From Escherichia phage tonijn: a DNA stretch of 51,627 bases. Below are positions 5,049-16,622 of the stretch, one piece after another (position 1 is the first letter of the stretch; each line of letters opens with the position of its first letter). The stretch is taken from the sequence record NC_049818.1; one strand, written 5' to 3'. Below the pieces are notes generated by a model, which saw nothing but the letters and a program-made list of their open reading frames with translations, made no database searches and was not told the DNA's origin. The position numbers and the translations under genes are program-made.

Positions 5049-7730
5049 ATGGCTGAGAAATACGCTGGCCTAACGCTAGGCGTTGACGTGTCGCAGGTCA
5101 ATAATGCTGTTAAATCATTGCAGCAATTCAAGAAGGCAAACGACGACGCAAAAAAAAGCGTTAATGAATTTGTTGATTCTGAGGTTGTGGCGCGACAGCA
5201 AGCTAAACAGTTTGCCGAAGAATTGGCGCGCCAGAAAGCAGAATTTAAGAAAATCCAGGAGTCAATTGATCCCACCGCATCAAAGATGGATAAGCTGCGA
5301 AAGGCAGCGACACAGCTTGATGCGCTATGGAAAAAGGGCATTGTTCCTGATGAGACTTTTTTTGAGCTTGGGGCAATTCTTGAGACACAGCAAAACAAGC
5401 TGATCGCAACCAAAAAAGCGATGACAGAGGAAGGCCGCGCGGCGCTTGAGGAATCAAAGAACAAAGCGCGTGCAGCGGAAGAGGCTAAAAAATTCATCCA
5501 GGCTTTGCGTGAGCAGGAAGAAGCAGCCGGAAAAAGCAAGTCTGAATTGCTGGAAATGAAAGCGGCACAGCTTGGAGTTAGCCAGGAGGCAGCACCTTAC
5601 ATCGCAAGACTGAAAGAGCAGGAAAAGCAGATCCAAAAACTTGGGATTTCTACAGGCCAATACAATCAAGCAATGAAGCTATTGCCAATGCAGATCACAG
5701 ACGTGGTGACTTCACTTGCTTCTGGTATGCCTGTTTGGCTGGTTGCAATCCAGCAGGGCGGACAGATTAAGGATTCTTTTGGTGGCGCATCCAATGCTTT
5801 AAAAGCGTTGCTATCTTTCCTTAATCCGGTAAACGTTGCGTTTGGCTTGCTTTCCGGCACGCTGGCAATTGCTGCATATAATGCCTACAAAACACAGACA
5901 GAGTTTGAGGCAATTAAAAAAACCGTTCAGGAAACAACTGGCTTGACTGGTGATTTTGCCGAAAAGATTGCTACCGGAATCCAGGAGCTTTCCGACAAGA
6001 CAGGAGAAAGCGCCGAAGATCTGGCAAAGGCTTACATCACCACGAAAGACGGCGCGAGCGAGGCGATTAAAAAACTGGTTGACGTTGGCATGACTTATGA
6101 TGACGCAAAAAAGAAAGTCAACGAGTACAAAGGCGCATCTAGCTTTGTTGGCCTGAATAACGACATTGCAAACCACAAAAATAAAATCCTTGAGTTGGGC
6201 GAGTCGTGGTATGAAGTTTTGAAAGCGAAGCGTGATTACGCTTCCCCGTCCGGCGGCCTGTTAGGTAAAGAGCTTGGCTATGTTAATCCTATGCTTAAGT
6301 TTGCACTTAACACTTATGAAGACATTGGAAAGGTCGTAAAAGATGCTAATAAGGACATGGCTGAACGAGCGGAGCGCATCGACAAAGAAAACCTGGCCTT
6401 GAACAGAGTGAGAGCAGCACAGGAGGCTTTAAACAAAGCCATTGAAGATCAGAAGGGCGTGGCGCGTTCGGCTGATGAAGAACTGAAAAAGCGTGCGGCT
6501 GAAAACGTGGAGTTCAGACGCAAAGAGCTTGAGGAGATCAAGAAGCAGGAGCAGAAAAAGAAAGAGGCTAAAGGCGGAATAGTTCGCGGCCCGACTGAGC
6601 AGCTTGATAAAGAGTTGTACGTTTTAAAAGCGCAACTGGAAACTCTTAAAGAGCATCGCACTGTTAATGATGTTATTTCTCGCCAGCGTAAATCTTTATG
6701 GAGCATCGAAAAGCAGATCGAGATCCTGGAGGATGCGCAGAGCAAGCGTAAATTGACCGGAGCGGAACAGGCGCTACTAAACGAGCAAAAATCCGTTTTG
6801 GAAATGGCAAGGCAAAAGGCTGAATTAGGGGATCAGATTGTTTTGCAGGAGCGCAAAAACAAGCTGGAGCAAGATAGCATTAAGTTTATCCGTGAAACGC
6901 AGGCGGCTATTGATGTGCTTGGCCTTAAGCAACTTGGCTACACTGAAAAGCAGATCGAGCGTGAGCTAGAGTTACGCAAGCTGCGCACCGACTACGAGGC
7001 GCAAGGAGGAAGCGTTAGCGATGAAGTTTTTCAGCAAATGGAGGCGAAACTTAAGCAGTATTATCAGACACAGGATGAGGTTCAAGGCAACTGGTTGGCA
7101 GGAGCAAAAAACGCATGGGAGCTATTCGCGGAAGATGCAAACAATGCCTATGGCAATGTTCAGCAGATCGCAAGCGAGGCGTTAAACGGCCTTACAAACC
7201 AATTAGCGAATTTTATCGCTACTGGCAAGGCAAACTTTAAAGACTTCTCGACTGCTATCATCAAAATGATTATTCAGATGATCACGAAAATGGTTGTCTT
7301 TAATGCGTTATCTGGCCTGATGGGTGGTCAAACCTGGACGATGGGGAGCTTGCTTAAGAATATTGGCGGATTTGCTGGCGGTGGATACACTGGCGACGGC
7401 GGGAAGTATGAGCCAGCCGGAATTGTTCATAAGGGTGAATTTGTCATGACTAAGGAGGCAACGCAGCGTATCGGAGTAGGCAACTTGTACCGCATGATGC
7501 GAGGCTATGCTAACGGCGGCGTTGTTGGTGGTTCCGGCTATACTGGCGGTGGCACTGTCACTGGTGGAGCACCTCAATTTAACATCGGTGGGATTGATGT
7601 TAGCATCAATAACGGCAATGATCCGAAGGGTATCGAAACTGGTGTTAAGATGATCTTTACTGATATGATTAGACGTTCCTGTATGCAGGGCGGGGAGGTT
7701 TACGAATTTGTTATGAGCAAGCGAGGTTGA
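5049..7730 (+). CDS. Tail tape measure protein
   Basis: 893-aa ORF, Ala/Lys/Glu-rich coiled-coil sequence with Gly-rich C-terminal region; follows G/GT. Confidence 0.8.
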   Translation: MAEKYAGLTLGVDVSQVNNAVKSLQQFKKANDDAKKSVNEFVDSEVVARQQAKQFAEELARQKAEFKKIQESIDPTASKMDKLRKAATQLDALWKKGIVPDETFFELGAILETQQNKLIATKKAMTEEGRAALEESKNKARAAEEAKKFIQALREQEEAAGKSKSELLEMKAAQLGVSQEAAPYIARLKEQEKQIQKLGISTGQYNQAMKLLPMQITDVVTSLASGMPVWLVAIQQGGQIKDSFGGASNALKALLSFLNPVNVAFGLLSGTLAIAAYNAYKTQTEFEAIKKTVQETTGLTGDFAEKIATGIQELSDKTGESAEDLAKAYITTKDGASEAIKKLVDVGMTYDDAKKKVNEYKGASSFVGLNNDIANHKNKILELGESWYEVLKAKRDYASPSGGLLGKELGYVNPMLKFALNTYEDIGKVVKDANKDMAERAERIDKENLALNRVRAAQEALNKAIEDQKGVARSADEELKKRAAENVEFRRKELEEIKKQEQKKKEAKGGIVRGPTEQLDKELYVLKAQLETLKEHRTVNDVISRQRKSLWSIEKQIEILEDAQSKRKLTGAEQALLNEQKSVLEMARQKAELGDQIVLQERKNKLEQDSIKFIRETQAAIDVLGLKQLGYTEKQIERELELRKLRTDYEAQGGSVSDEVFQQMEAKLKQYYQTQDEVQGNWLAGAKNAWELFAEDANNAYGNVQQIASEALNGLTNQLANFIATGKANFKDFSTAIIKMIIQMITKMVVFNALSGLMGGQTWTMGSLLKNIGGFAGGGYTGDGGKYEPAGIVHKGEFVMTKEATQRIGVGNLYRMMRGYANGGVVGGSGYTGGGTVTGGAPQFNIGGIDVSINNGNDPKGIETGVKMIFTDMIRRSCMQGGEVYEFVMSKRG

Positions 7731-10293: not shown

Positions 10294-13200
10294 ATGGCTA
10301 AATATATGATAAGCGGCAGTAAGGGCGGAAGCAAAAAGCCATATGTGCCAAAAGAGATGGAAGATAACCTGATCTCGATAAACAAGATTAAAGTTTTGCT
10401 GGCTGTATCTGATGGCGAGTGCGATCCAGATTTCACGTTGCGTGATCTTTATCTTGATGATGTTCCGGTTATTGCCAGCGATGGCACTGTTAACTATGAG
10501 GGTGTAACGGCTGAATATAGACCAGGCACACAGACGCAAGATTACATCCAGGGGTTTACTGACACGTCAAGCGAGGTGACAGTTTCGCGAGATATTACAA
10601 CAGACAATCCCTATATTATCTCTGTAACAAATAAAAATCTTTCTGCAATCAGAATCAAGATTCTGATGCCAACTGGCATAAAACAGGAGGATAACGGCGA
10701 TCTTGTTGGTGTAAGGGTTCAATATGCCGTAGATATGGCTGTTGATGGCGGTTCTTATAACGAGGTTATGAGAGATGTAATTGACGGCAAGACAAGATCA
10801 GGATATGACCGCAGCAGAAGGATTGATCTTCCTAAGTTTGATGAGCGCGTTTTAATCAGGGTCAAGCGACTGACTCCAGACAGCACATCTTCAAAGGTGA
10901 CTGATAAAATCAAACTGCAAAGTTACGCTGAGGTTGTGGATGCAAAATTCCGTTATCCTCTGACTGGCCTTGTATTCGTAGAATTTGACAGCGAATTGTT
11001 TCCTACGCAAATCCCTAACATTTCTATAAAAAAGAAATGGAAGATTATTAACGTGCCAAGCAACTACGATCCAATATCAAGAGAATATCACGGGTCATGG
11101 GATGGTACTTTTAAAAAAGCGTGGTCAAATAATCCTGCTTGGGTGCTTTATGATCTGGTAACGAATCAGCGTTATGGGCTTGACCAGCGAGAGCTAGGAA
11201 TACAGATCGACAAGTGGAGCTTATATGAGGCAGGAGTTTACTGTGATCAGAAAGTTCCAGACGGTAAAGGCGGTACAGAGCCTCGCTACCTATGCGATGT
11301 TGTGATTCAGAATCAAGTTGAGGCTTATCAGCTAATCCGTGACATTTGCTCAATCTTTCGCGGAATGAGCTTTTGGAATGGTGAGAGCTTATCAATCGTG
11401 ATTGATAAGCCGCGCGATCCATCATACGTGTTTACTAATGAAAACGTCATCAACGGTGATTTTCAGTACACAACCGCAAGCGAAAAAAGCATGTACACGC
11501 AGTGTAACGTGACGTTTGACGACGAACAAAACATGTATCAACAGGACGTAGAGGGGGTTTTTGATACTGAGGCGGCATTACGATTTGGATACAATCCAAC
11601 AAGCATTACAGCGATCGGGTGTACACGCAGGAGCGAAGCGAATCGTCGCGGTCGGTGGGTTTTGAAAACAAACCTTAGAAGCACTACTGTAAACTTTGCT
11701 ACTGGACTGGAGGGGATGATTCCATCAATAGGTGATGTGATTGCTATCGCTGATAATTTTCAGAGCAGCAACCTAACGTTAAACCTATCGGGCCGAGTGA
11801 TGGAAGTTTCAGGATTGCAGGTTTTCGTTCCGTTTAAGGTTGATGCTCGTCCTGGTGATTTTATTATCATCAACAAGCCGGACGGTAAGCCAGTTAAGCG
11901 CACGATCTCAAAGGTTAGCGCAGACGGAAAAACCATTGAGTTAAATATTGGATTTGGTTTTGATGTTAAGCCTGATACCGTTTTTGCGATTGACCGTACT
12001 GACCTTGCGTTGCAGCAATACGTTGTGACAACTATCAGCAAGGGTGATGACGAAAACGAGTTTACCTATTCAATCACGGCTGTAGAGTACGATCCGAACA
12101 AATACGACGAGATTGATTATGGAGTAAACATTGATGACAGGCCAACTTCAATTGTTCAGCCTGACGTGATGGCAGCGCCTGAGAACGTGCAGATCTCATC
12201 TTATTCTCGCGTCGTGCAGGGTGTCAGCGTTGAAACTATGGTTGTGTCATGGGAAAAAGTGCCTTATGCGTCATTGTATGAAATGCAATGGCGAAAAGGT
12301 GATGGCAACTGGCTGAATACGCCGCAGACAGCTAACAAAGAGATAGAGGTAGAAGGAATTTATTCTGGTAACTACCAAGTAAGGGTTAGATCTGTTTCTG
12401 CAAGCGGTAACACTTCCCCGTGGTCAAAGATTGCAACCGCCACCCTGACAGGTAAAGTTGGCGAGCCAGGAGCGCCGATTAATCTTACAGCTTCTGATAA
12501 TGAAGTTTTTGGCATTCGTGTCAAATGGGGTATGCCGGAAGGATCGGGCGATACGGCTTACATTGAGCTTCACCAATCGCCAGATGGGACGGTGGAAAAC
12601 TCAAGTTTGCTTACGCTGATCCCGTATCCTCAATATGAGTATTGGCATAGCACGTTACCAGCGGGTCAAGTTGTATGGTATAGAATCCGTAGCGTTGACA
12701 GGATCGGCAACGTTTCCGGCTGGACTGACTTTGTTCGCGGCATGGCGTCAGATGATGTTGAATCTGTTTTAGGCGACATTCTGGACAAGATTTTTGATAC
12801 CGAAGCGGGTCAAGAAATCAAAGAGAACGCCATAGACAGTGCAAACAAAATCAAAGACCAGGCGCAATCAATCATCCAGAACGCATTGGCAAACGATGCC
12901 GATGTGAAGTGGACGCGAGTACAAAACGGAAAGCGTAAGGCTGAATATGGTCATGCACTGGAGCTTATTGCTACCGAAACGGAGGCGCGAGTAACTCAAA
13001 TCGAAGAGTTAAAGGCGTCAATTGATGAAGATATAGTTTCAAGTATCAAAACCGTTCAGGAAGCGATTGCCAACGAATCAGAGACGCGAGCTACTCAAGT
13101 GCAGCAGCTTGATTCTAAATTTACGAAGGAAATAGACGGCGTAAAACGAGATACGGCTGCAAGCATTGGCGAGGTAAGGCAAACCATTACCAATGAATCA

Positions 13201-13872
13201 GAAGCGCGTGCGCAAGCCGTTCAGCAGCTTGACGCTAAGTTTACGAAAGAGATAAACGACCTTGACGAAGTGATCAAAACCGAAGTCGAGGCTAACATCT
13301 CAGAAGTGAAACAGGCGATCGCTAATGAGACAGAGGCAAGGGTTCAGGCCGACCAGTCTTTAACAGCTAAATTCGGAGACGTTGAGTCAGCACTAGCAGA
13401 AAAACTTGATTCGTGGGCTAACGTTGATTCGGTTGGCGCTAAGTACGCTATGAAATTGGGCCTTAATTACAAGGGGCAGAAGTACAGCGCAGGAATGGTA
13501 ATGCAGCTATCGCAATCGTCGCAGGGGTTGATCTCACAAATCCTTTTCGATGCTAACCGATTTGCAATTATGACCAGTTCGGCAGGTGGCGTTTACACAT
13601 TGCCGTTTGTAGTAGAAAATAACCAGGTGTTTATCAACAGTTTGTTGGTGAAAAACGGGTCCATTACTAACGCAATGATTGGTAACGTGATTCAGTCAAA
13701 TAACTTTGTTCAGAATCAGCAAGGATGGAGGCTTGATAAAAATGGTAACTTTGAGAACTACGGAACGAGAGCTGGAGAAGGAGCTACAAAATTCACTAAC
13801 GAAGGCTTAAAGGTGAAAGATGCAAATGGACGATTGAGGGTTGAGATAGGGAGAATAACCGGAAGTTGGTAA
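10294..13872 (+). CDS. Central tail fiber / host specificity protein (lambda gpJ-like)
   Basis: ATG 10294 after AAAGG; about 1192 aa; follows M-L-K-I; contains tandem repeats near the C-terminus. Confidence 0.75.
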   Translation: MAKYMISGSKGGSKKPYVPKEMEDNLISINKIKVLLAVSDGECDPDFTLRDLYLDDVPVIASDGTVNYEGVTAEYRPGTQTQDYIQGFTDTSSEVTVSRDITTDNPYIISVTNKNLSAIRIKILMPTGIKQEDNGDLVGVRVQYAVDMAVDGGSYNEVMRDVIDGKTRSGYDRSRRIDLPKFDERVLIRVKRLTPDSTSSKVTDKIKLQSYAEVVDAKFRYPLTGLVFVEFDSELFPTQIPNISIKKKWKIINVPSNYDPISREYHGSWDGTFKKAWSNNPAWVLYDLVTNQRYGLDQRELGIQIDKWSLYEAGVYCDQKVPDGKGGTEPRYLCDVVIQNQVEAYQLIRDICSIFRGMSFWNGESLSIVIDKPRDPSYVFTNENVINGDFQYTTASEKSMYTQCNVTFDDEQNMYQQDVEGVFDTEAALRFGYNPTSITAIGCTRRSEANRRGRWVLKTNLRSTTVNFATGLEGMIPSIGDVIAIADNFQSSNLTLNLSGRVMEVSGLQVFVPFKVDARPGDFIIINKPDGKPVKRTISKVSADGKTIELNIGFGFDVKPDTVFAIDRTDLALQQYVVTTISKGDDENEFTYSITAVEYDPNKYDEIDYGVNIDDRPTSIVQPDVMAAPENVQISSYSRVVQGVSVETMVVSWEKVPYASLYEMQWRKGDGNWLNTPQTANKEIEVEGIYSGNYQVRVRSVSASGNTSPWSKIATATLTGKVGEPGAPINLTASDNEVFGIRVKWGMPEGSGDTAYIELHQSPDGTVENSSLLTLIPYPQYEYWHSTLPAGQVVWYRIRSVDRIGNVSGWTDFVRGMASDDVESVLGDILDKIFDTEAGQEIKENAIDSANKIKDQAQSIIQNALANDADVKWTRVQNGKRKAEYGHALELIATETEARVTQIEELKASIDEDIVSSIKTVQEAIANESETRATQVQQLDSKFTKEIDGVKRDTAASIGEVRQTITNESEARAQAVQQLDAKFTKEINDLDEVIKTEVEANISEVKQAIANETEARVQADQSLTAKFGDVESALAEKLDSWANVDSVGAKYAMKLGLNYKGQKYSAGMVMQLSQSSQGLISQILFDANRFAIMTSSAGGVYTLPFVVENNQVFINSLLVKNGSITNAMIGNVIQSNNFVQNQQGWRLDKNGNFENYGTRAGEGATKFTNEGLKVKDANGRLRVEIGRITGSW
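12966..13380 (+). repeat. Four tandem imperfect repeats of about 120 bp inside the J gene (protein motif AIANESE-RA--VQQLD-KFTKEI)
   Basis: Repeat units visible at about 12966, 13060, 13186 and 13311 at both DNA and protein level. Confidence 0.6.
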
Positions 13873-13905
13873 AAAAAAAGGGGGCATGGCCCCCTTTAAT
13901 TTTAA
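13871..13905. terminator. Bidirectional terminator between convergent J and the - strand cassette
   Basis: A9 tract, hairpin gggggcatggccccc (13880-13894), then T-rich tract. Confidence 0.7.
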
Positions 13906-14528
13906 TCATAGTGCGATGAATTTATAACCAAAACAGATGATGCCGTGTAAATACCAACAGGACCAGGAGTTTGCGCAACCTGCCTAGATAAAGAATATAC
14001 CCCGTTGCCATACGCGGCAGCTTGAGACTCAAATATCATGAATCCACCTAAAGACGGATTGGGCACAGAGTTTAAAGCTGTTAGTGATGGCATGATGGCG
14101 CAAGGGTATCCCAAGTTAACGTCAAAAGCGATCCCGCTTACAGATACAAGTTTTGCATCCAAAGGCTTCATCTTTCCATGATAAACCATCTCACCATTAG
14201 CATTATAAAAAGCTATTCCGTGACTACCAGGAGGAGTAACCATGTTGCTAAAAGCATAAACAAATACCTCGCCTTGATTGTCGGACTTTTCTATCTTTAT
14301 TGCGTGCTTCCCACCATTATTAAACTGAGTAAATGCTATGTATGATTTTGATGTTAACCTTACAAAAAAGAAGCACGGTCTATTTATTGGTATAGAAGTA
14401 TTAAAAACGGTTCCTGTTCTTGCTGATATTTTCCCTTTATCTATAAGGTTAACAGGAGTGAAATCTGGACTTAACCACAATGAACCGTCTGGTTTTTTTA
14501 TGCTCATCCCGTACATTATTACCCCCAA
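13902..14528 (-). CDS. Hypothetical protein (last gene of the - strand cassette)
   Basis: 208-aa ORF; start overlaps the stop of the upstream ORF. Confidence 0.5.
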   Translation of the reverse strand: MGVIMYGMSIKKPDGSLWLSPDFTPVNLIDKGKISARTGTVFNTSIPINRPCFFFVRLTSKSYIAFTQFNNGGKHAIKIEKSDNQGEVFVYAFSNMVTPPGSHGIAFYNANGEMVYHGKMKPLDAKLVSVSGIAFDVNLGYPCAIMPSLTALNSVPNPSLGGFMIFESQAAAYGNGVYSLSRQVAQTPGPVGIYTASSVLVINSSHYD

Positions 14529-14797
14529 AAAGTATATATATATCTTGAGTCAGATCCAGAAAGGCCACTCCATGTAACGGTATCACCACTTACACCCAAC
14601 TTTGGAGCGCCTGGATCGCCTCCTCGCCACGAATTCATTCCAACATATATTGCTTTCAAAGACTTACCTGGCGGCCTGTTTGAGTAGGTCTTACTGCCGG
14701 ATGATTGGGTAAATTTATCCAAGAAAAAAACTGGAGTTAAAAGGCCAGTAACATTTCTACCTTGCTCATCATATATTGCATACCCATATTCAGCCAT
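14519..14797 (-). CDS. Hypothetical protein
   Basis: 92-aa ORF translationally coupled to the flanking genes. Confidence 0.45.
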   Translation of the reverse strand: MAEYGYAIYDEQGRNVTGLLTPVFFLDKFTQSSGSKTYSNRPPGKSLKAIYVGMNSWRGGDPGAPKLGVSGDTVTWSGLSGSDSRYIYTFWG

Positions 14798-15065
14798 TTT
14801 TGCACCTCAAATCAATGAATTTTCTTTCATCTTGCCAACGGTTGATAAATTTAACTTCTTTATTGTCAACGCTCAACCTGTATTGCTTTTGGCTGAATCT
14901 GTTTTCGCGGACCGCATTAATTTTAACTTCATGGAATCCGTTAACAGGGAATGTTTTAACGTTAAATTTTGCCGTGCAATCGATCTCCTTGAAGTTGCCA
15001 GTAGGCGAAGAAGAACATCCGGTCAGGGCGGCTACGGTGGCGATAACTGCGATTAATTTTTTCAT
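14790..15065 (-). CDS. Lipoprotein, candidate superinfection-exclusion protein (Cor/Llp-like)
   Basis: ATG 15063-15065 after AAGGAG; signal peptide with lipobox LTGC (MKKLIAVIATVAALTGCSS); position next to tail fiber genes. Confidence 0.5.
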   Translation of the reverse strand: MKKLIAVIATVAALTGCSSSPTGNFKEIDCTAKFNVKTFPVNGFHEVKINAVRENRFSQKQYRLSVDNKEVKFINRWQDERKFIDLRCKNG

Positions 15066-15097
15066 CTTCAATACTCCTTAGTTGTTGTTGGCTGTAA

Positions 15098-15140
15098 CTA
15101 TACACGATCCGGCAAGCCGAGTTTAGCAAAAAGTGCTACT
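15098..15140 (-). promoter_or_regulatory. Conserved 20-bp element plus TATAGT -10, oriented to drive the lipoprotein cassette
   Basis: The - strand reads TAGCACTTTTTGCTAAAC, 18 nt, then TATAGT, then AAGGAG RBS. Confidence 0.45.
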
Positions 15141-15508
15141 TGTTATTTTTTGTTTTCCGGTGTTATCGGATTTAAGGCGGCGTAAATTTAGCGCAAATTT
15201 TAGCCAACATAAGAACAATAAATAATCAATAAAATAGGTATATACATATAAAATCAATAGTTTATTTATTTATGTATGTGTATTTGTTTTTTCTTGTTAT
15301 CTGTGTTTCTTGTGGTTTTGGTTGTTTGTGGTGATTTTTCTTTCTGAGTATCTGTATGTGCCATCATTCATGTGTATGTATATAATCCGGCGTATCTGAG
15401 AGAACGAGGGAACAAGAAAAATAACACATATTAATCATTAACTTACGCGTCAAATTTGTTTTATTGCCATCTGAGAACGTTTAGAAAACAGAAAAAACAA
15501 AACAACTA

Positions 15509-15536
15509 TTGACTAAATCAACCAAATGGCTACAAT
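15509..15536 (+). promoter_or_regulatory. Sigma70-type promoter (TTGACT-N16-TACAAT) for the recombination operon
   Basis: TTGACT 15509-15514, TACAAT 15531-15536, RBS GAGGAG 15553-15558, ATG 15567. Confidence 0.6.
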
Positions 15537-15566
15537 GCACACACAAAGCAACGAGGAGCATTAAAG

Positions 15567-16622
15567 ATGAGTGATTTTAACGCCTATACTAGCGAAGAAA
15601 TGAGCAATGAGCTTTATCATGATCCTAACGCGTGGACGGCTGAATACGTCAGCGGTTCCAGCCTGGCGGAGATTTACAGCACTTGCCCTGCGTACTGGAA
15701 GTACAAGCCTCGCCAGGAAACCAAAGCACTTGTTTTCGGTACGCAGTCGCATACCAATTTTGAAAGCAAGGAGTTATTCGAAAAAACATATCGCCGCGCA
15801 CCGTCGCAGGATGATTTTAAAGATCTGATCACAAGTCAAACGGCGTTGGCCTCAAAGCTGAAATCTTTTGGCCTGAAAGGTACAACGGGTAAGCAATACC
15901 CTGAATTGCTGGAAATGCTGTACAAGTGCGGTGAGGATCTCAATGTGTGGTGGCTTATCGAAATGATGGCAGAATGCCAGGCCGCAGCGGACGGCGTGCA
16001 GCTAATCGACGCGAAAGATTATGATGCCTGTGTAGCGATGCGGCGCGTACTTGAGGCAATACCTGAGCATAATGCTTGCATGAATAGCCCAACCGCGCAG
16101 CGTGAAATGTCAATATTCGGGATCATCAATGGCGTAAAAGTTAAAGTGCGCCTTGATCACGTTGACGTAAACAAGGATGTAAAGGCCACAATCATTAACG
16201 GTTACGACGAAAAAGGCCGACCGATTTATGAAGAAGTCATCTATCCAGAAGCTGTGATTATCACTGACTATAAAACAACGGTTAGCGCAAATCCGGTTGA
16301 CTTCCAGCGCCTGGCTTACAATCACGGCTATTATCTCAAAATGGCTTTGCAGCATGATTTATTTAAAAAGGCGTATCCAGACGAGGAAAGGCCAGTAATT
16401 GTGAGATTGCTTGCTCAAGAGAAGAAAGAGCCTTACTTGCCGCTCGCATTCCGCATGAACATTGAGCAATTGAAGATTGGGCGTATCCAGTACATGAGCG
16501 TGATCAATAAGTTCAATGTTTGCCAGAAGTTAGATGAATGGCCTTCGTATGCAAACGGACAACCAGAAATTGATCTGGATACTCCTGATTGGGTGCGCGC
16601 TCAATTCAGGCAGTATCTATAA
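15567..16622 (+). CDS. PD-(D/E)XK-type recombination exonuclease (putative)
   Basis: 351 aa; VIITDYKTT motif consistent with a D-x-K nuclease core; first gene of the exonuclease-Erf-SSB module. Confidence 0.5.
   Translation: MSDFNAYTSEEMSNELYHDPNAWTAEYVSGSSLAEIYSTCPAYWKYKPRQETKALVFGTQSHTNFESKELFEKTYRRAPSQDDFKDLITSQTALASKLKSFGLKGTTGKQYPELLEMLYKCGEDLNVWWLIEMMAECQAAADGVQLIDAKDYDACVAMRRVLEAIPEHNACMNSPTAQREMSIFGIINGVKVKVRLDHVDVNKDVKATIINGYDEKGRPIYEEVIYPEAVIITDYKTTVSANPVDFQRLAYNHGYYLKMALQHDLFKKAYPDEERPVIVRLLAQEKKEPYLPLAFRMNIEQLKIGRIQYMSVINKFNVCQKLDEWPSYANGQPEIDLDTPDWVRAQFRQYL

What the first reader, a model, noticed from the sequence alone, without database searches (positions are those of the whole stretch)
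13902..15140. Minus-strand three-gene cassette (lipoprotein plus two unknown proteins) between tail and recombination modules
Three translationally coupled genes (lipoprotein 14790..15065, then 14519..14797, then 13902..14528) are transcribed opposite to the tail genes from their own element-type promoter and end at the bidirectional terminator shared with J. The lipoprotein (signal peptide plus LTGC lipobox) resembles receptor-blocking superinfection-exclusion lipoproteins (Cor/Llp type), which are typically solitary. The two downstream proteins of 92 and 208 aa have no recognisable motifs, so this may be a multi-component exclusion or receptor-related module.
Basis: inference. Interest (0 to 1): 0.55.

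Follow-up and report, generated by a model that had tools for sequence, protein, structure and literature searches.

The report
BtuB receptor-binding and exclusion cassette
This is the already described host-recognition locus of a T1-like coliphage: two small tail-tip proteins that most likely bind the outer-membrane vitamin B12 transporter BtuB, plus a lipoprotein that probably blocks that receptor in infected cells.

Summary
The three minus-strand genes are real. They are conserved and under purifying selection (dN/dS 0.06-0.14). They lie between the J tail-tip gene and the recE/erf/ssb module and end at a hairpin terminator shared with J.

The window is a Warwickvirus-like Drexlerviridae phage. 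The cassette is the "bona fide RBP locus downstream of gpJ" of Maffei et al. 2021, in its BtuB allele. Bas04 (88-92% identity) and Bas06 (55-73%) carry the same cassette and were shown to need BtuB.

The 92-aa and 204-aa proteins are not exclusion or membrane proteins:
- Proteins 91/92 and 200/204 identical were detected by mass spectrometry in purified vB_EcoS-95 virions; the lipoprotein was not.
- Neither has a signal peptide or transmembrane segment.
- Single-chain fusions of the two proteins occur directly after gpJ in prophages.
- The last ~80 residues of J co-vary with cassette type.

The lipoprotein is a plausible Cor/Llp-like exclusion factor, but it scores below the curated Cor cut-off and its function is untested.

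This is known biology and of low interest.

The parts
10294..13872 (+). J-like central tail fibre / tail-tip gene (1192 aa from ATG 10294; the mechanical ORF starts at TTG 10243)
   Evidence: One search gives the ORF. It has the same length as vBEcoS95_83 (3579 nt), which was detected in virions at 132.4 kDa. Relatives annotate it as J-like tail tip protein.
13630..13869 (+). Last ~80 codons of J: the tip segment that co-varies with the cassette type and is the probable docking site for the 92-aa/204-aa proteins
   Evidence: The J proteins of the Dhillonviruses PTXU06 and Oekolampad are 94-96% identical upstream but only 42% identical in the last 80 aa. The PTXU06 tip (BtuB-type cassette) is 49-55% identical to the window, Bas04 and T1 tips. 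The Oekolampad tip (LptD-type) is 33-34% identical to them.
13877..13897 (.). Hairpin terminator between the convergent J and 204-aa genes
   Evidence: 9-bp GC-rich stem, -18.5 kcal/mol, z = -4.2. A T9 run follows on the minus strand; the tail on the plus strand is weaker.
13902..14516 (-). 204-aa virion protein; predicted BtuB-specific receptor-binding protein (large subunit)
14519..14797 (-). 92-aa virion protein; small subunit or adaptor of the receptor-binding complex
   Evidence: PHROG 557, 3e-21. It is 91/92 identical to vBEcoS95_85, found in virions with 3 peptides and 55% coverage. Its profile matches residues 1-84 of 307-325-aa proteins whose remainder matches the 204-aa profile.
14790..15065 (-). 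91-aa lipoprotein precursor (lipobox LTG|C17; invariant C30 and C88); predicted BtuB-directed superinfection-exclusion protein
15066..15125 (-). Conserved 5' leader upstream of the lipoprotein gene (SD AAGGAG 15074..15079; -10-like TATAGT 15097..15102). The promoter is not established.
   Evidence: The block is conserved in Bas04, Bas06 and the FhuA-type phage Bas05, where it precedes cor alone.

Best explanation
The cassette is the host-recognition and self-exclusion locus of a Warwickvirus-like T1-type siphophage, in its BtuB-specific allele.

The 92-aa and 204-aa proteins are soluble, all-beta virion proteins. They assemble non-covalently on the C-terminal tip of the trimeric J central fibre. 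Together they form a split receptor-binding protein, equivalent to the single-chain ~320-aa RBPs of related phages.

By analogy with the fused and solved relatives, the 92-aa protein corresponds to the tail-proximal N-terminal module. The distal loops of the 204-aa protein contact the extracellular face of BtuB, the TonB-dependent vitamin B12 transporter. This contact gives irreversible adsorption and triggers DNA ejection.

The first gene encodes a lipoprotein that is exported, lipidated and anchored on the periplasmic side of the outer membrane. There it most likely binds BtuB and makes it unusable for this phage's RBP, as T5 Llp does with FhuA and Rtp45 does with LptD. This would protect infected cells from superinfection and protect progeny from adsorbing to debris.

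Shown or near-shown:
- The genes are real.
- The two proteins are virion-associated, from MS on a phage with 98-100% identical proteins.
- Phages with homologous cassettes depend on BtuB.
- The 204-aa protein has an RBP-like fold.
- Natural fusions of the two proteins exist.

Inferred:
- Direct binding to BtuB.
- Which subunit contacts the receptor.
- Docking on the J tip.
- The exclusion activity of the lipoprotein.
For: 1. Identity of the element. The region is 98.9% identical to phage Poky and ~97.9% identical to vB_EcoS-95, both Warwickvirus. The cassette lies directly after gpJ, the position of the RBP locus defined by Maffei 2021 (PMC8594841).

2. Receptor. Bas04 FritzSarasin and Bas06 KarlJaspers have BtuB as their experimentally determined terminal receptor (S5 Table). 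Both carry the same three-gene minus-strand cassette. Identities to the window proteins (lipoprotein, small, large) are 91/92/88% for Bas04 and 55/73/64% for Bas06. Bas05, in the same genus but FhuA-dependent, has a different, T1-type allele.

3. Virion association. LC-MS/MS of vB_EcoS-95 virions detected _0084 (22.0 kDa) and _0085 (10.0 kDa, 55% coverage) but not _0086 (PMC6340994 Table 6). The locus tags map to the 204-aa, 92-aa and lipoprotein genes. The window proteins are 200/204, 91/92 and 91/91 identical to them, and the calculated masses are 21,982 and 10,016 Da.

5. Split versus fused forms. About 11 of the 130 library hits are 307-325 aa long, with the 204-like part at residues ~95-290. 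The 92-aa profile matches their N-termini; for P0143 the match covers residues 1-83 at E = 6.5e-8. The P0143 gene overlaps the gpJ stop codon in a lambdoid prophage and is followed by a Cor-like lipoprotein gene on the opposite strand.

6. The J tip co-varies with cassette type.

7. Neither the 92-aa nor the 204-aa protein has a signal peptide or transmembrane segment (maximum KD19 0.59 and 1.36).

Against: - No direct binding, adsorption or exclusion experiment exists for this allele in the literature I could search.
- The virion MS evidence for the 204-aa protein rests on 2 peptides. It comes from whole-virion digests and does not locate the protein on the tail.
- The T1 cryo-EM study did not resolve the J C-terminus or see gp31/gp32 (PMC11945409).
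- There is no detectable sequence similarity to the Oekolampad RBP. Foldseek against the PDB found nothing significant.
- Co-transcription of virion proteins with a presumed early exclusion gene is regulatorily odd, and no promoter could be assigned.
Confidence: 0.8

Rival explanations
1. The cassette is a multi-component superinfection-exclusion module. The 92-aa and 204-aa proteins would be (outer) membrane proteins that act with the Cor-like lipoprotein. This is the first reader's idea and is also suggested for the T1 'cor cassette' in PMC13164509.
For: [quoted passage not shown] Here they are translationally coupled to the lipoprotein gene. PMC13164509 assumes a Sie-related role for them.
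Against: - Neither protein has a signal peptide or transmembrane segment.
- Both are found in purified virions, while the lipoprotein is not.
- The fold is RBP-like.
- In T1, Bas05, the Stx phages and prophage L006 the pair or its fusion follows the tail fibre or J gene on the tail-gene strand, either separate from cor or with no lipoprotein gene annotated beside it.
- The J tip co-varies with the cassette.
- There are no PADLOC hits.
Confidence: 0.04
2. Only the 204-aa protein is a structural RBP. The 92-aa protein would be an assembly chaperone or tail-fibre assembly factor that is not part of the functional tip.
For: Many phage fibre genes are followed or preceded by small chaperone genes. 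The 92-aa protein has no informative match among solved structures by sequence, and it was not modelled here.
Against: It was detected in virions with 3 peptides and 55% coverage. Natural single-chain fusions keep it as the N-terminal module of the RBP. It is more conserved than the large protein among BtuB-type phages (73% versus 64% identity to Bas06), as expected for a tail-proximal adaptor.
Confidence: 0.1
3. The cassette is an RBP locus, but this particular allele recognises a receptor other than BtuB, for example another TonB-dependent transporter.
For: Receptor specificity can change with few substitutions. The same protein superfamily serves FhuA in T1 and Bas05 and also occurs in Stx phages. 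The receptor of the window phage itself was not tested.
Against: The window proteins fall within the diversity spanned by two experimentally BtuB-dependent phages, at 88% and 64% identity for the large protein. FhuA-type proteins are only 22-25% identical to it.
Confidence: 0.07

Closest known systems
BtuB-type 'bona fide RBP locus' downstream of gpJ in Drexlerviridae and Dhillonvirus (Maffei et al. 2021, PMC8594841; Bas04 FritzSarasin bas04_0023-0025; Bas06 KarlJaspers bas06_0024-0026; vB_EcoS-95 genes 84-86)
   Same: It has the same position, the same three genes in the same order and on the same strand, and the same terminator arrangement. Identity is 98-100% to the vB_EcoS-95 proteins and 88-92% to the Bas04 proteins.
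   Different: Nothing of substance; the window is another isolate of this allele. None of these records gives the three genes a functional name: GenBank entries call them hypothetical, and RefSeq/PHROG-style entries call them membrane proteins or, in one record, Cor.
T1-type FhuA locus: T1 gp32 (101 aa), gp31 (229 aa) and Cor gp30, and the equivalents in N15, HK022, phi80 and ES18
   Same: The small and large proteins are homologous. The A1 profile matches T1 gp31 at 1.9e-9 and the Bas05 large protein at 1.4e-12. The A2 profile matches the Bas05 small protein at 3.6e-9. All share N-terminal YG..(W/Y)(D/N)..G motifs and a C-terminal ..YD. A small lipoprotein gene lies alongside, and the J tip sequence is similar (69% identity over the last 80 aa).
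   Different: Identity is only 22-29%. The receptor is FhuA, not BtuB. In T1 the pair is on the tail-gene strand and cor alone is on the opposite strand, whereas here the pair lies downstream of the lipoprotein gene in one minus-strand unit.
LptD-type locus of Oekolampad (Bas18) and Rtp: RBP bas18_0025 (PDB 9rpt chain C) plus the exclusion lipoprotein (bas18_0026 / Rtp45)
   Different: It has a single 321-aa chain instead of 92 + 204 aa. There is no detectable sequence similarity. Its receptor is LptDE, which is not a TonB-dependent transporter, its J tip is different, and its lipoprotein acts by displacing a loop rather than by allostery through the plug.
T5 pb5/Llp and BF23 Hrs/Llp (Demerecviridae), which target FhuA and BtuB
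   Same: The logic is the same: a dedicated RBP held non-covalently on the central fibre, with an adjacent small disulphide-bonded lipoprotein that inactivates the same TonB-dependent receptor from the periplasm (PMC9586334).

Membership tests
Small-siphophage RBP locus downstream of gpJ (Maffei 2021), BtuB allele | Located immediately downstream of the gpJ homologue, before the recombination or lateral-fibre genes | tested here: met
   J ends at 13872, the cassette spans 13902..15065, and recE-like starts at 15567. Synteny is the same in Bas04, Bas06 and vB_EcoS-95.
Small-siphophage RBP locus downstream of gpJ (Maffei 2021), BtuB allele | Homologous to the allele carried by phages whose terminal receptor was determined experimentally as BtuB, and distinct from alleles linked to other receptors | tested here: met
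   Identities for the lipoprotein, small and large proteins are 91/92/88% to Bas04 and 55/73/64% to Bas06, both BtuB-dependent. They are only 22-29% to the FhuA-type alleles of Bas05 and T1.
Small-siphophage RBP locus downstream of gpJ (Maffei 2021), BtuB allele | The encoded RBP proteins are virion components | tested here: met
   This rests on the literature for near-identical proteins. MS of vB_EcoS-95 virions detected genes 84 and 85, which are 200/204 and 91/92 identical to the window proteins. It has not been shown for this isolate.
Small-siphophage RBP locus downstream of gpJ (Maffei 2021), BtuB allele | Direct binding of the RBP to BtuB, and BtuB dependence of this phage | not testable with these tools
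   This needs plating on a btuB deletion strain, pull-down or cryo-EM. No multimer prediction tool was available.
Oekolampad-type RBP fold (PDB 9rpt chain C) | Structural similarity of the whole protein to the solved RBP | tested here: met
Oekolampad-type RBP fold (PDB 9rpt chain C) | Detectable sequence homology | tested here: not met
   BLASTP gives E > 1. The A1 profile scores 2.7 bits, and phmmer with the Oekolampad RBP finds none of the 166 family proteins.
Cor / Llp receptor-blocking exclusion lipoproteins | Sec/SPII signal peptide with a lipobox, and a small mature protein (~60-80 aa) | tested here: met
   The precursor begins MKKLIAVIATVAALTG|C and the mature protein is 75 aa. Pfam LPAM_1 gives a weak hit.
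Cor / Llp receptor-blocking exclusion lipoproteins | A conserved Cys pair near the two ends of the mature protein (Llp Cys11-Cys58 disulphide) | tested here: met
   C30 and C88 are invariant in 13 homologues. T1 Cor has the same pattern..CTA.. and ..DCSI. The disulphide itself is inferred, not shown.
Cor / Llp receptor-blocking exclusion lipoproteins | Sequence membership in the curated Cor family | tested here: not met
   NCBIfam NF047972 scores 18.6 bits against a cut-off of 31. BLASTP to T1 Cor aligns only residues 1-34. The PHROG 1119 hit at 6e-8 is largely driven by the signal peptide.
Cor / Llp receptor-blocking exclusion lipoproteins | Llp-like fold | tested here: inconclusive
Cor / Llp receptor-blocking exclusion lipoproteins | [quoted passage not shown] | not testable with these tools
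   No experiment on this lipoprotein family was found.
'Outer membrane protein' / 'membrane associated protein' (names of PHROG 557 and 425) | A signal peptide, transmembrane helix or beta-barrel that would place the protein in a host membrane | tested here: not met
   The N-termini are not hydrophobic (MAEYGYAIYDEQ.., MYGMSIKKPDGS..). Maximum KD19 is 0.59 and 1.36. The 204-aa protein models as a soluble all-beta protein. Both proteins are found in virions.

The most novel reading that the evidence does not exclude
The RBPs encoded downstream of gpJ in small siphophages may form one structural superfamily that exists in split (small + large) and fused (~320 aa) forms. A 2026 preprint treats the FhuA-, BtuB- and LptD-specific families as unrelated. 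The same split pair in short-tailed Stx-converting phages (VT2-Sakai orf63/orf64) would then be a so far unrecognised receptor-binding module of those toxin-carrying phages. The BtuB-type lipoprotein would be a new sequence family of TonB-dependent-transporter-blocking exclusion proteins.
Probability: 0.4. Interest if true: 0.45.

Novelty: already known. Interest (0 to 1): 0.22.

Why it matters
The locus decides which outer-membrane protein the phage uses, so it predicts host range and the route to resistance (loss of btuB). It is also the natural cassette to swap when engineering receptor specificity.

For annotation, the result is corrective. Database names such as 'outer membrane protein', 'membrane associated protein' and 'moron' for PHROG 557 and 425 are misleading. 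These proteins should be called tail-tip receptor-binding proteins.

The links found here are modest additions to a known picture and generate hypotheses. They are the structural match to the solved LptD RBP, the natural small+large fusions, the co-variation of the J tip, and the homologous pair in Stx phages.

Tried and rejected
- Pfam, NCBIfam and PADLOC gave nothing useful for the 92-aa and 204-aa proteins.
- A sequence search of the PDB gave nothing.
- I tested whether the 92-aa protein and the two halves of the 204-aa protein are paralogous repeats. hhalign supports only a 14-residue motif, YGxAxY(D/N)xxGxxV, at E = 0.0036, and no domain-level homology. I dropped the three-repeat idea.
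- I tested for direct sequence similarity between the 92-aa protein and the N-terminus of the Oekolampad RBP. There is none.
- I looked for a sigma-70 promoter for the cassette. None passes the scan. The TTGCTA...TATAGT pair has a 21-nt spacer, so I do not call it a promoter, although Dhillonvirus and T1 have clear sigma-70-like promoters at the equivalent place.
- The T1 cryo-EM paper did not help, because the distal J region was not resolved.
Full report
**1. What is in the sequence**

Three ORFs lie on the minus strand between the J-like tail-tip gene (+, ending at 13872) and a recE-like/erf/ssb recombination module (+, starting at 15567).

- The first ORF (14790..15065, 91 aa) starts MKKLIAVIATVAALTG|C, a classical lipoprotein signal peptide with an LTGC lipobox. 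An AAGGAG ribosome-binding site precedes it.
- The second ORF (14519..14797, 92 aa) starts inside the end of the first (ATGGCTGA overlap).
- The third ORF ends at 13902. Its real start is ATG 14516, two bases after the stop codon of the second gene and behind a GGGGG ribosome-binding site. All 17 homologues begin MYG... and are 203-210 aa long.

A 9-bp GC-rich hairpin (13877..13897; -18.5 kcal/mol, z = -4.2) fills the 29-nt gap between the convergent J and 204-aa genes, with a T9 run on the minus strand.

All three genes are under strong purifying selection relative to phage Bas04: dN/dS is 0.14, 0.06 and 0.08.

The consensus scan finds no sigma-70 site on the minus strand upstream of 15065. 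A conserved TATAGT at 15097..15102 has no properly spaced -35 element.

**2. Where it comes from**

The region is 98.9% identical to Escherichia phage vB_EcoD_Poky, ~97.9% identical to vB_EcoS-95, and 87% identical to FritzSarasin (Bas04), tonnikala, swan01 and others. All are Drexlerviridae, Tempevirinae, Warwickvirus. The window is therefore a T1-like virulent coliphage.

**3. What the locus is called in the literature**

Maffei et al. 2021 (PMC8594841) defined 'bona fide RBP loci' directly downstream of gpJ in Drexlerviridae, Dhillonvirus and Queuovirinae. The allelic variants of these loci match the terminal receptor (FhuA, BtuB, YncD, LptD) without exception. [quoted passage not shown]

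A 2026 preprint (10.64898/2026.04.02.716166) confirmed this on 64 T1-like phages (Drexlerviridae and related taxa) and speaks of an RBP plus 'one or two accessory proteins'.

For the LptD allele, both functions have been shown by cryo-EM. The Oekolampad (Bas18) RBP binds the extracellular face of LptDE, and the adjacent lipoprotein of Rtp binds the periplasmic face (10.1101/2025.07.07.663478).

A 2026 paper on phage KanT1 (PMC13164509) describes the T1 version as a 'cor cassette'. Relying on the PHROG names, it speculates that the two non-lipoprotein genes encode membrane proteins related to exclusion.

**4. Which receptor**

In the BASEL S5 Table the experimentally determined terminal receptor of Bas04 FritzSarasin and Bas06 KarlJaspers is BtuB. 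Both phages carry the same minus-strand cassette of 89 + 91/92 + 204 aa.

| Phage | Receptor | Lipoprotein | Small | Large |
|---|---|---|---|---|
| Bas04 | BtuB | 91% | 92% | 88% |
| Bas06 | BtuB | 55% | 73% | 64% |
| Bas05 | FhuA | 25% | 29% | 25% |
| T1 | FhuA | 29% | 22% | 22% |

Values are identities to the window proteins.

Bas05 PeterMerian is in the same genus but depends on FhuA. It has the T1-type allele instead: J, then 103 aa, then 197 aa on the plus strand, with cor on the minus strand. The window allele lies inside the diversity spanned by two BtuB-dependent phages, so BtuB is the most likely receptor.

**5. The 92-aa and 204-aa proteins are virion proteins, not membrane or exclusion proteins**

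(a) LC-MS/MS of purified vB_EcoS-95 virions detected vB_EcoS-95_0083 (J, 132.4 kDa), _0084 ('unknown', 22.0 kDa, 2 peptides) and _0085 ('unknown', 10.0 kDa, 3 peptides, 55% coverage), but not _0086 (PMC6340994, Table 6). In the GenBank record these tags are the 204-aa, 92-aa and lipoprotein genes. The window proteins are 200/204, 91/92 and 91/91 identical to them, and their calculated masses are 21,982 and 10,016 Da.

(b) Neither protein has a signal peptide or a hydrophobic segment (maximum 19-residue Kyte-Doolittle average 0.59 and 1.36).

(d) Oekolampad has the same gene layout as the window, with the lipoprotein gene then the RBP gene on the minus strand, convergent on J.

(e) An exhaustive profile search with the 204-aa family found 130 proteins. 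About 11 of them are 307-325 aa long, with the 204-like part at residues ~95-290. A profile of the 92-aa family matches their N-terminal ~80 residues: P0143 at E = 6.5e-8, P0130 at 6e-7, P0113 at 1e-5, and others. These are natural small+large fusions, which argues that the two window proteins act as one unit. The P0143 gene overlaps the stop codon of gpJ in a lambdoid prophage. It is followed by an opposite-strand lipoprotein gene with an LSGC lipobox and two further Cys residues.

(f) The last ~80 residues of J co-vary with the cassette. The Dhillonvirus J proteins of PTXU06 (BtuB-type cassette) and Oekolampad (LptD-type) are 94-96% identical upstream but 42% identical in the last 80 residues. 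The PTXU06 tip is 49-55% identical to the tips of the window, Bas04 and T1, whereas the Oekolampad tip is 33-34% identical to them. This is what is expected if the cassette proteins dock on the J tip. It agrees with the preprint's observation that the J tip is a specificity-associated feature.

**6. Relationship to the T1 (FhuA) pair**

In T1 the order is J (gp33), gp32 (101 aa) and gp31 (229 aa) on the tail-gene strand, then cor (gp30) on the opposite strand.

Pairwise BLAST similarity to the window proteins is marginal, but profiles connect them. The 204-aa profile scores T1 gp31 at 1.9e-9 over its full length and the Bas05 large protein at 1.4e-12. The 92-aa profile scores the Bas05 small protein at 3.6e-9. 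T1-gp31-like representatives are also among the whole-library hits.

The BtuB- and FhuA-type pairs are therefore one superfamily. The LptD RBP is linked to it only by structure.

A short motif, YGxAx(Y/W)(D/N)xxG, recurs at the N-terminus of the small protein, at the N-terminus of the large protein and in the middle of the large protein. Domain-level repeat homology is not supported.

**7. The lipoprotein**

It matches PHROG 1119 'Cor superinfection exclusion protein' at E = 6e-8 and the NCBIfam Cor equivalog at 18.6 bits, below the 31-bit cut-off. BLAST against T1 Cor aligns only the signal peptide and a few residues beyond it.

Among 13 homologues, C30 and C88 are invariant, at positions 14 and 72 of the 75-residue mature protein. 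This recalls the Cys11-Cys58 disulphide that ties the termini of T5 Llp (PMC9586334) and the CTA...C pattern of T1 Cor.

The protein was not detected in virions. Its role as a BtuB-directed exclusion factor is therefore a reasonable inference from position, size, lipidation signal and analogy, and nothing more. BtuB is a TonB-dependent transporter like FhuA, so the Llp mechanism of binding the periplasmic face and allosterically closing extracellular loops is the most likely one. van den Berg et al. explicitly proposed that this mechanism extends to other such transporters.

**8. Mosaic boundaries**

The signal peptide of the lipoprotein belongs to the phage backbone rather than to the cassette.

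- PTXU06 (BtuB-type) and Oekolampad (LptD-type) share MKTLIMICAVLLSGC.
- Bas05 cor and the Bas06 lipoprotein share MKKLIAVLIAAVALTGC.
- The ~100 nt upstream of the lipoprotein start codon are conserved between BtuB- and FhuA-type Tempevirinae.

Together with the J-tip result, this places the exchangeable module between roughly the last 80 codons of J and the end of the lipoprotein signal peptide.

Between the window and Bas04, synonymous divergence is 0.24 in the lipoprotein gene but 0.88-0.94 in the two RBP genes. This suggests a further breakpoint inside the cassette.

**9. Mechanism**

Shown or nearly shown:
- The genes are real.
- The 92-aa and 204-aa proteins are virion components.
- Phages with this allele need BtuB.
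- The large protein has the fold of a solved RBP from the same locus type.

Inferred:
- The two proteins form a heteromer on the J tip.
- The small protein is the tail-proximal module. It corresponds to the N-terminal part of the fused forms, and in the LptD RBP models the N-terminus lies at the tail-proximal base (PMC13035648).
- The distal loops of the large protein bind the extracellular loops of BtuB.
- The lipoprotein inactivates BtuB from the periplasm.

An open point is regulation. Here, and in Oekolampad, virion proteins are co-transcribed with a gene expected to act early. No promoter could be assigned.

**10. Verdict**

The lipoprotein is a plausible Cor/Llp-type exclusion protein. 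The two downstream proteins are the tail-tip receptor-binding proteins, not extra exclusion components.

The locus type, its BtuB allele and even near-identical sequences are already published, so this is known biology. The small additions from this analysis are:
- the natural fusions;
- the link between an overlooked virion proteome and the RBP-locus model;
- the observation that the PHROG and RefSeq names for these families are misnomers.

Noticed in passing
L002 (VT2-Sakai NC_000902.1) 5768-6618; window 13902-14797: Short-tailed Stx-converting phages (VT2-Sakai, 933W-like and many Stx2a phages) carry a homologous small+large pair (orf63/orf64; the large protein is 45% identical). It lies directly after a tail fibre gene and before lom, with no lipoprotein gene annotated next to it. 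It may be an unrecognised receptor-binding module of these toxin phages. The annotated GTG start of orf63 (75 aa) looks truncated compared with the 92-aa family.
   Followed up: partly
window 13902-14797 (PHROG 557 and 425): The database names 'outer membrane protein', 'membrane associated protein' and the category 'moron, auxiliary metabolic gene and host takeover' for these families conflict with three observations: the lack of any export signal, the detection in virions and the RBP-like fold. The names propagate into RefSeq and pharokka annotations and misled a 2026 paper.
   Followed up: yes
window 14790-15065 versus 13902-14797; L001: Between the window and Bas04, synonymous divergence is 0.24 in the lipoprotein gene but 0.88-0.94 in the two RBP genes. 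This indicates a recombination breakpoint inside the cassette, so the lipoprotein and RBP genes do not always travel together.
   Followed up: partly
window 15015-15065; L004 3001-3045; L005 7800-7844; L008, L009: The lipoprotein signal peptide and the upstream leader are specific to the phage backbone, not the cassette. They are identical in PTXU06 and Oekolampad, and in Bas05 cor and the Bas06 lipoprotein. One mosaic junction of the exchangeable module therefore lies just after the signal peptide.
   Followed up: partly
window 15066-15566: This is a 500-bp AT-rich intergenic region with A/C-rich tracts (ACAAACAACCAAAACCACAAGAAACACAG...) and many short inverted repeats. It is conserved in Bas04, Bas05 and Bas06. 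Two sigma-70-like sites on the plus strand (15358-15386 and 15509-15536) probably serve the recE/erf/ssb operon. T1 has GTTACAC repeats in the equivalent place.
   Followed up: partly
phage records MG065680, MG065643, MG065657, MG065681: Five records labelled 'Campylobacter phage', all 49,946 bp with host C. jejuni, carry this Drexlerviridae cassette (large protein 63% identical, lipoprotein 53%). They look like T1-like coliphages and may be contaminants or mislabelled.
   Followed up: no
window 13902-14797; T1 L003 28607-29601: A short motif, (Y/W)G-x-(A/S)-x-(Y/W)-(D/N)-x-x-G, recurs at the N-terminus of the small protein, at the N-terminus of the large protein and at about residue 100 of the large protein. 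It is present in both BtuB- and FhuA-type pairs, and a similar motif starts the Oekolampad RBP. Its structural role is unknown, and domain-level repeat homology was not significant.
   Followed up: partly
Synteny matches T1 gp29-gp27.
   Followed up: no
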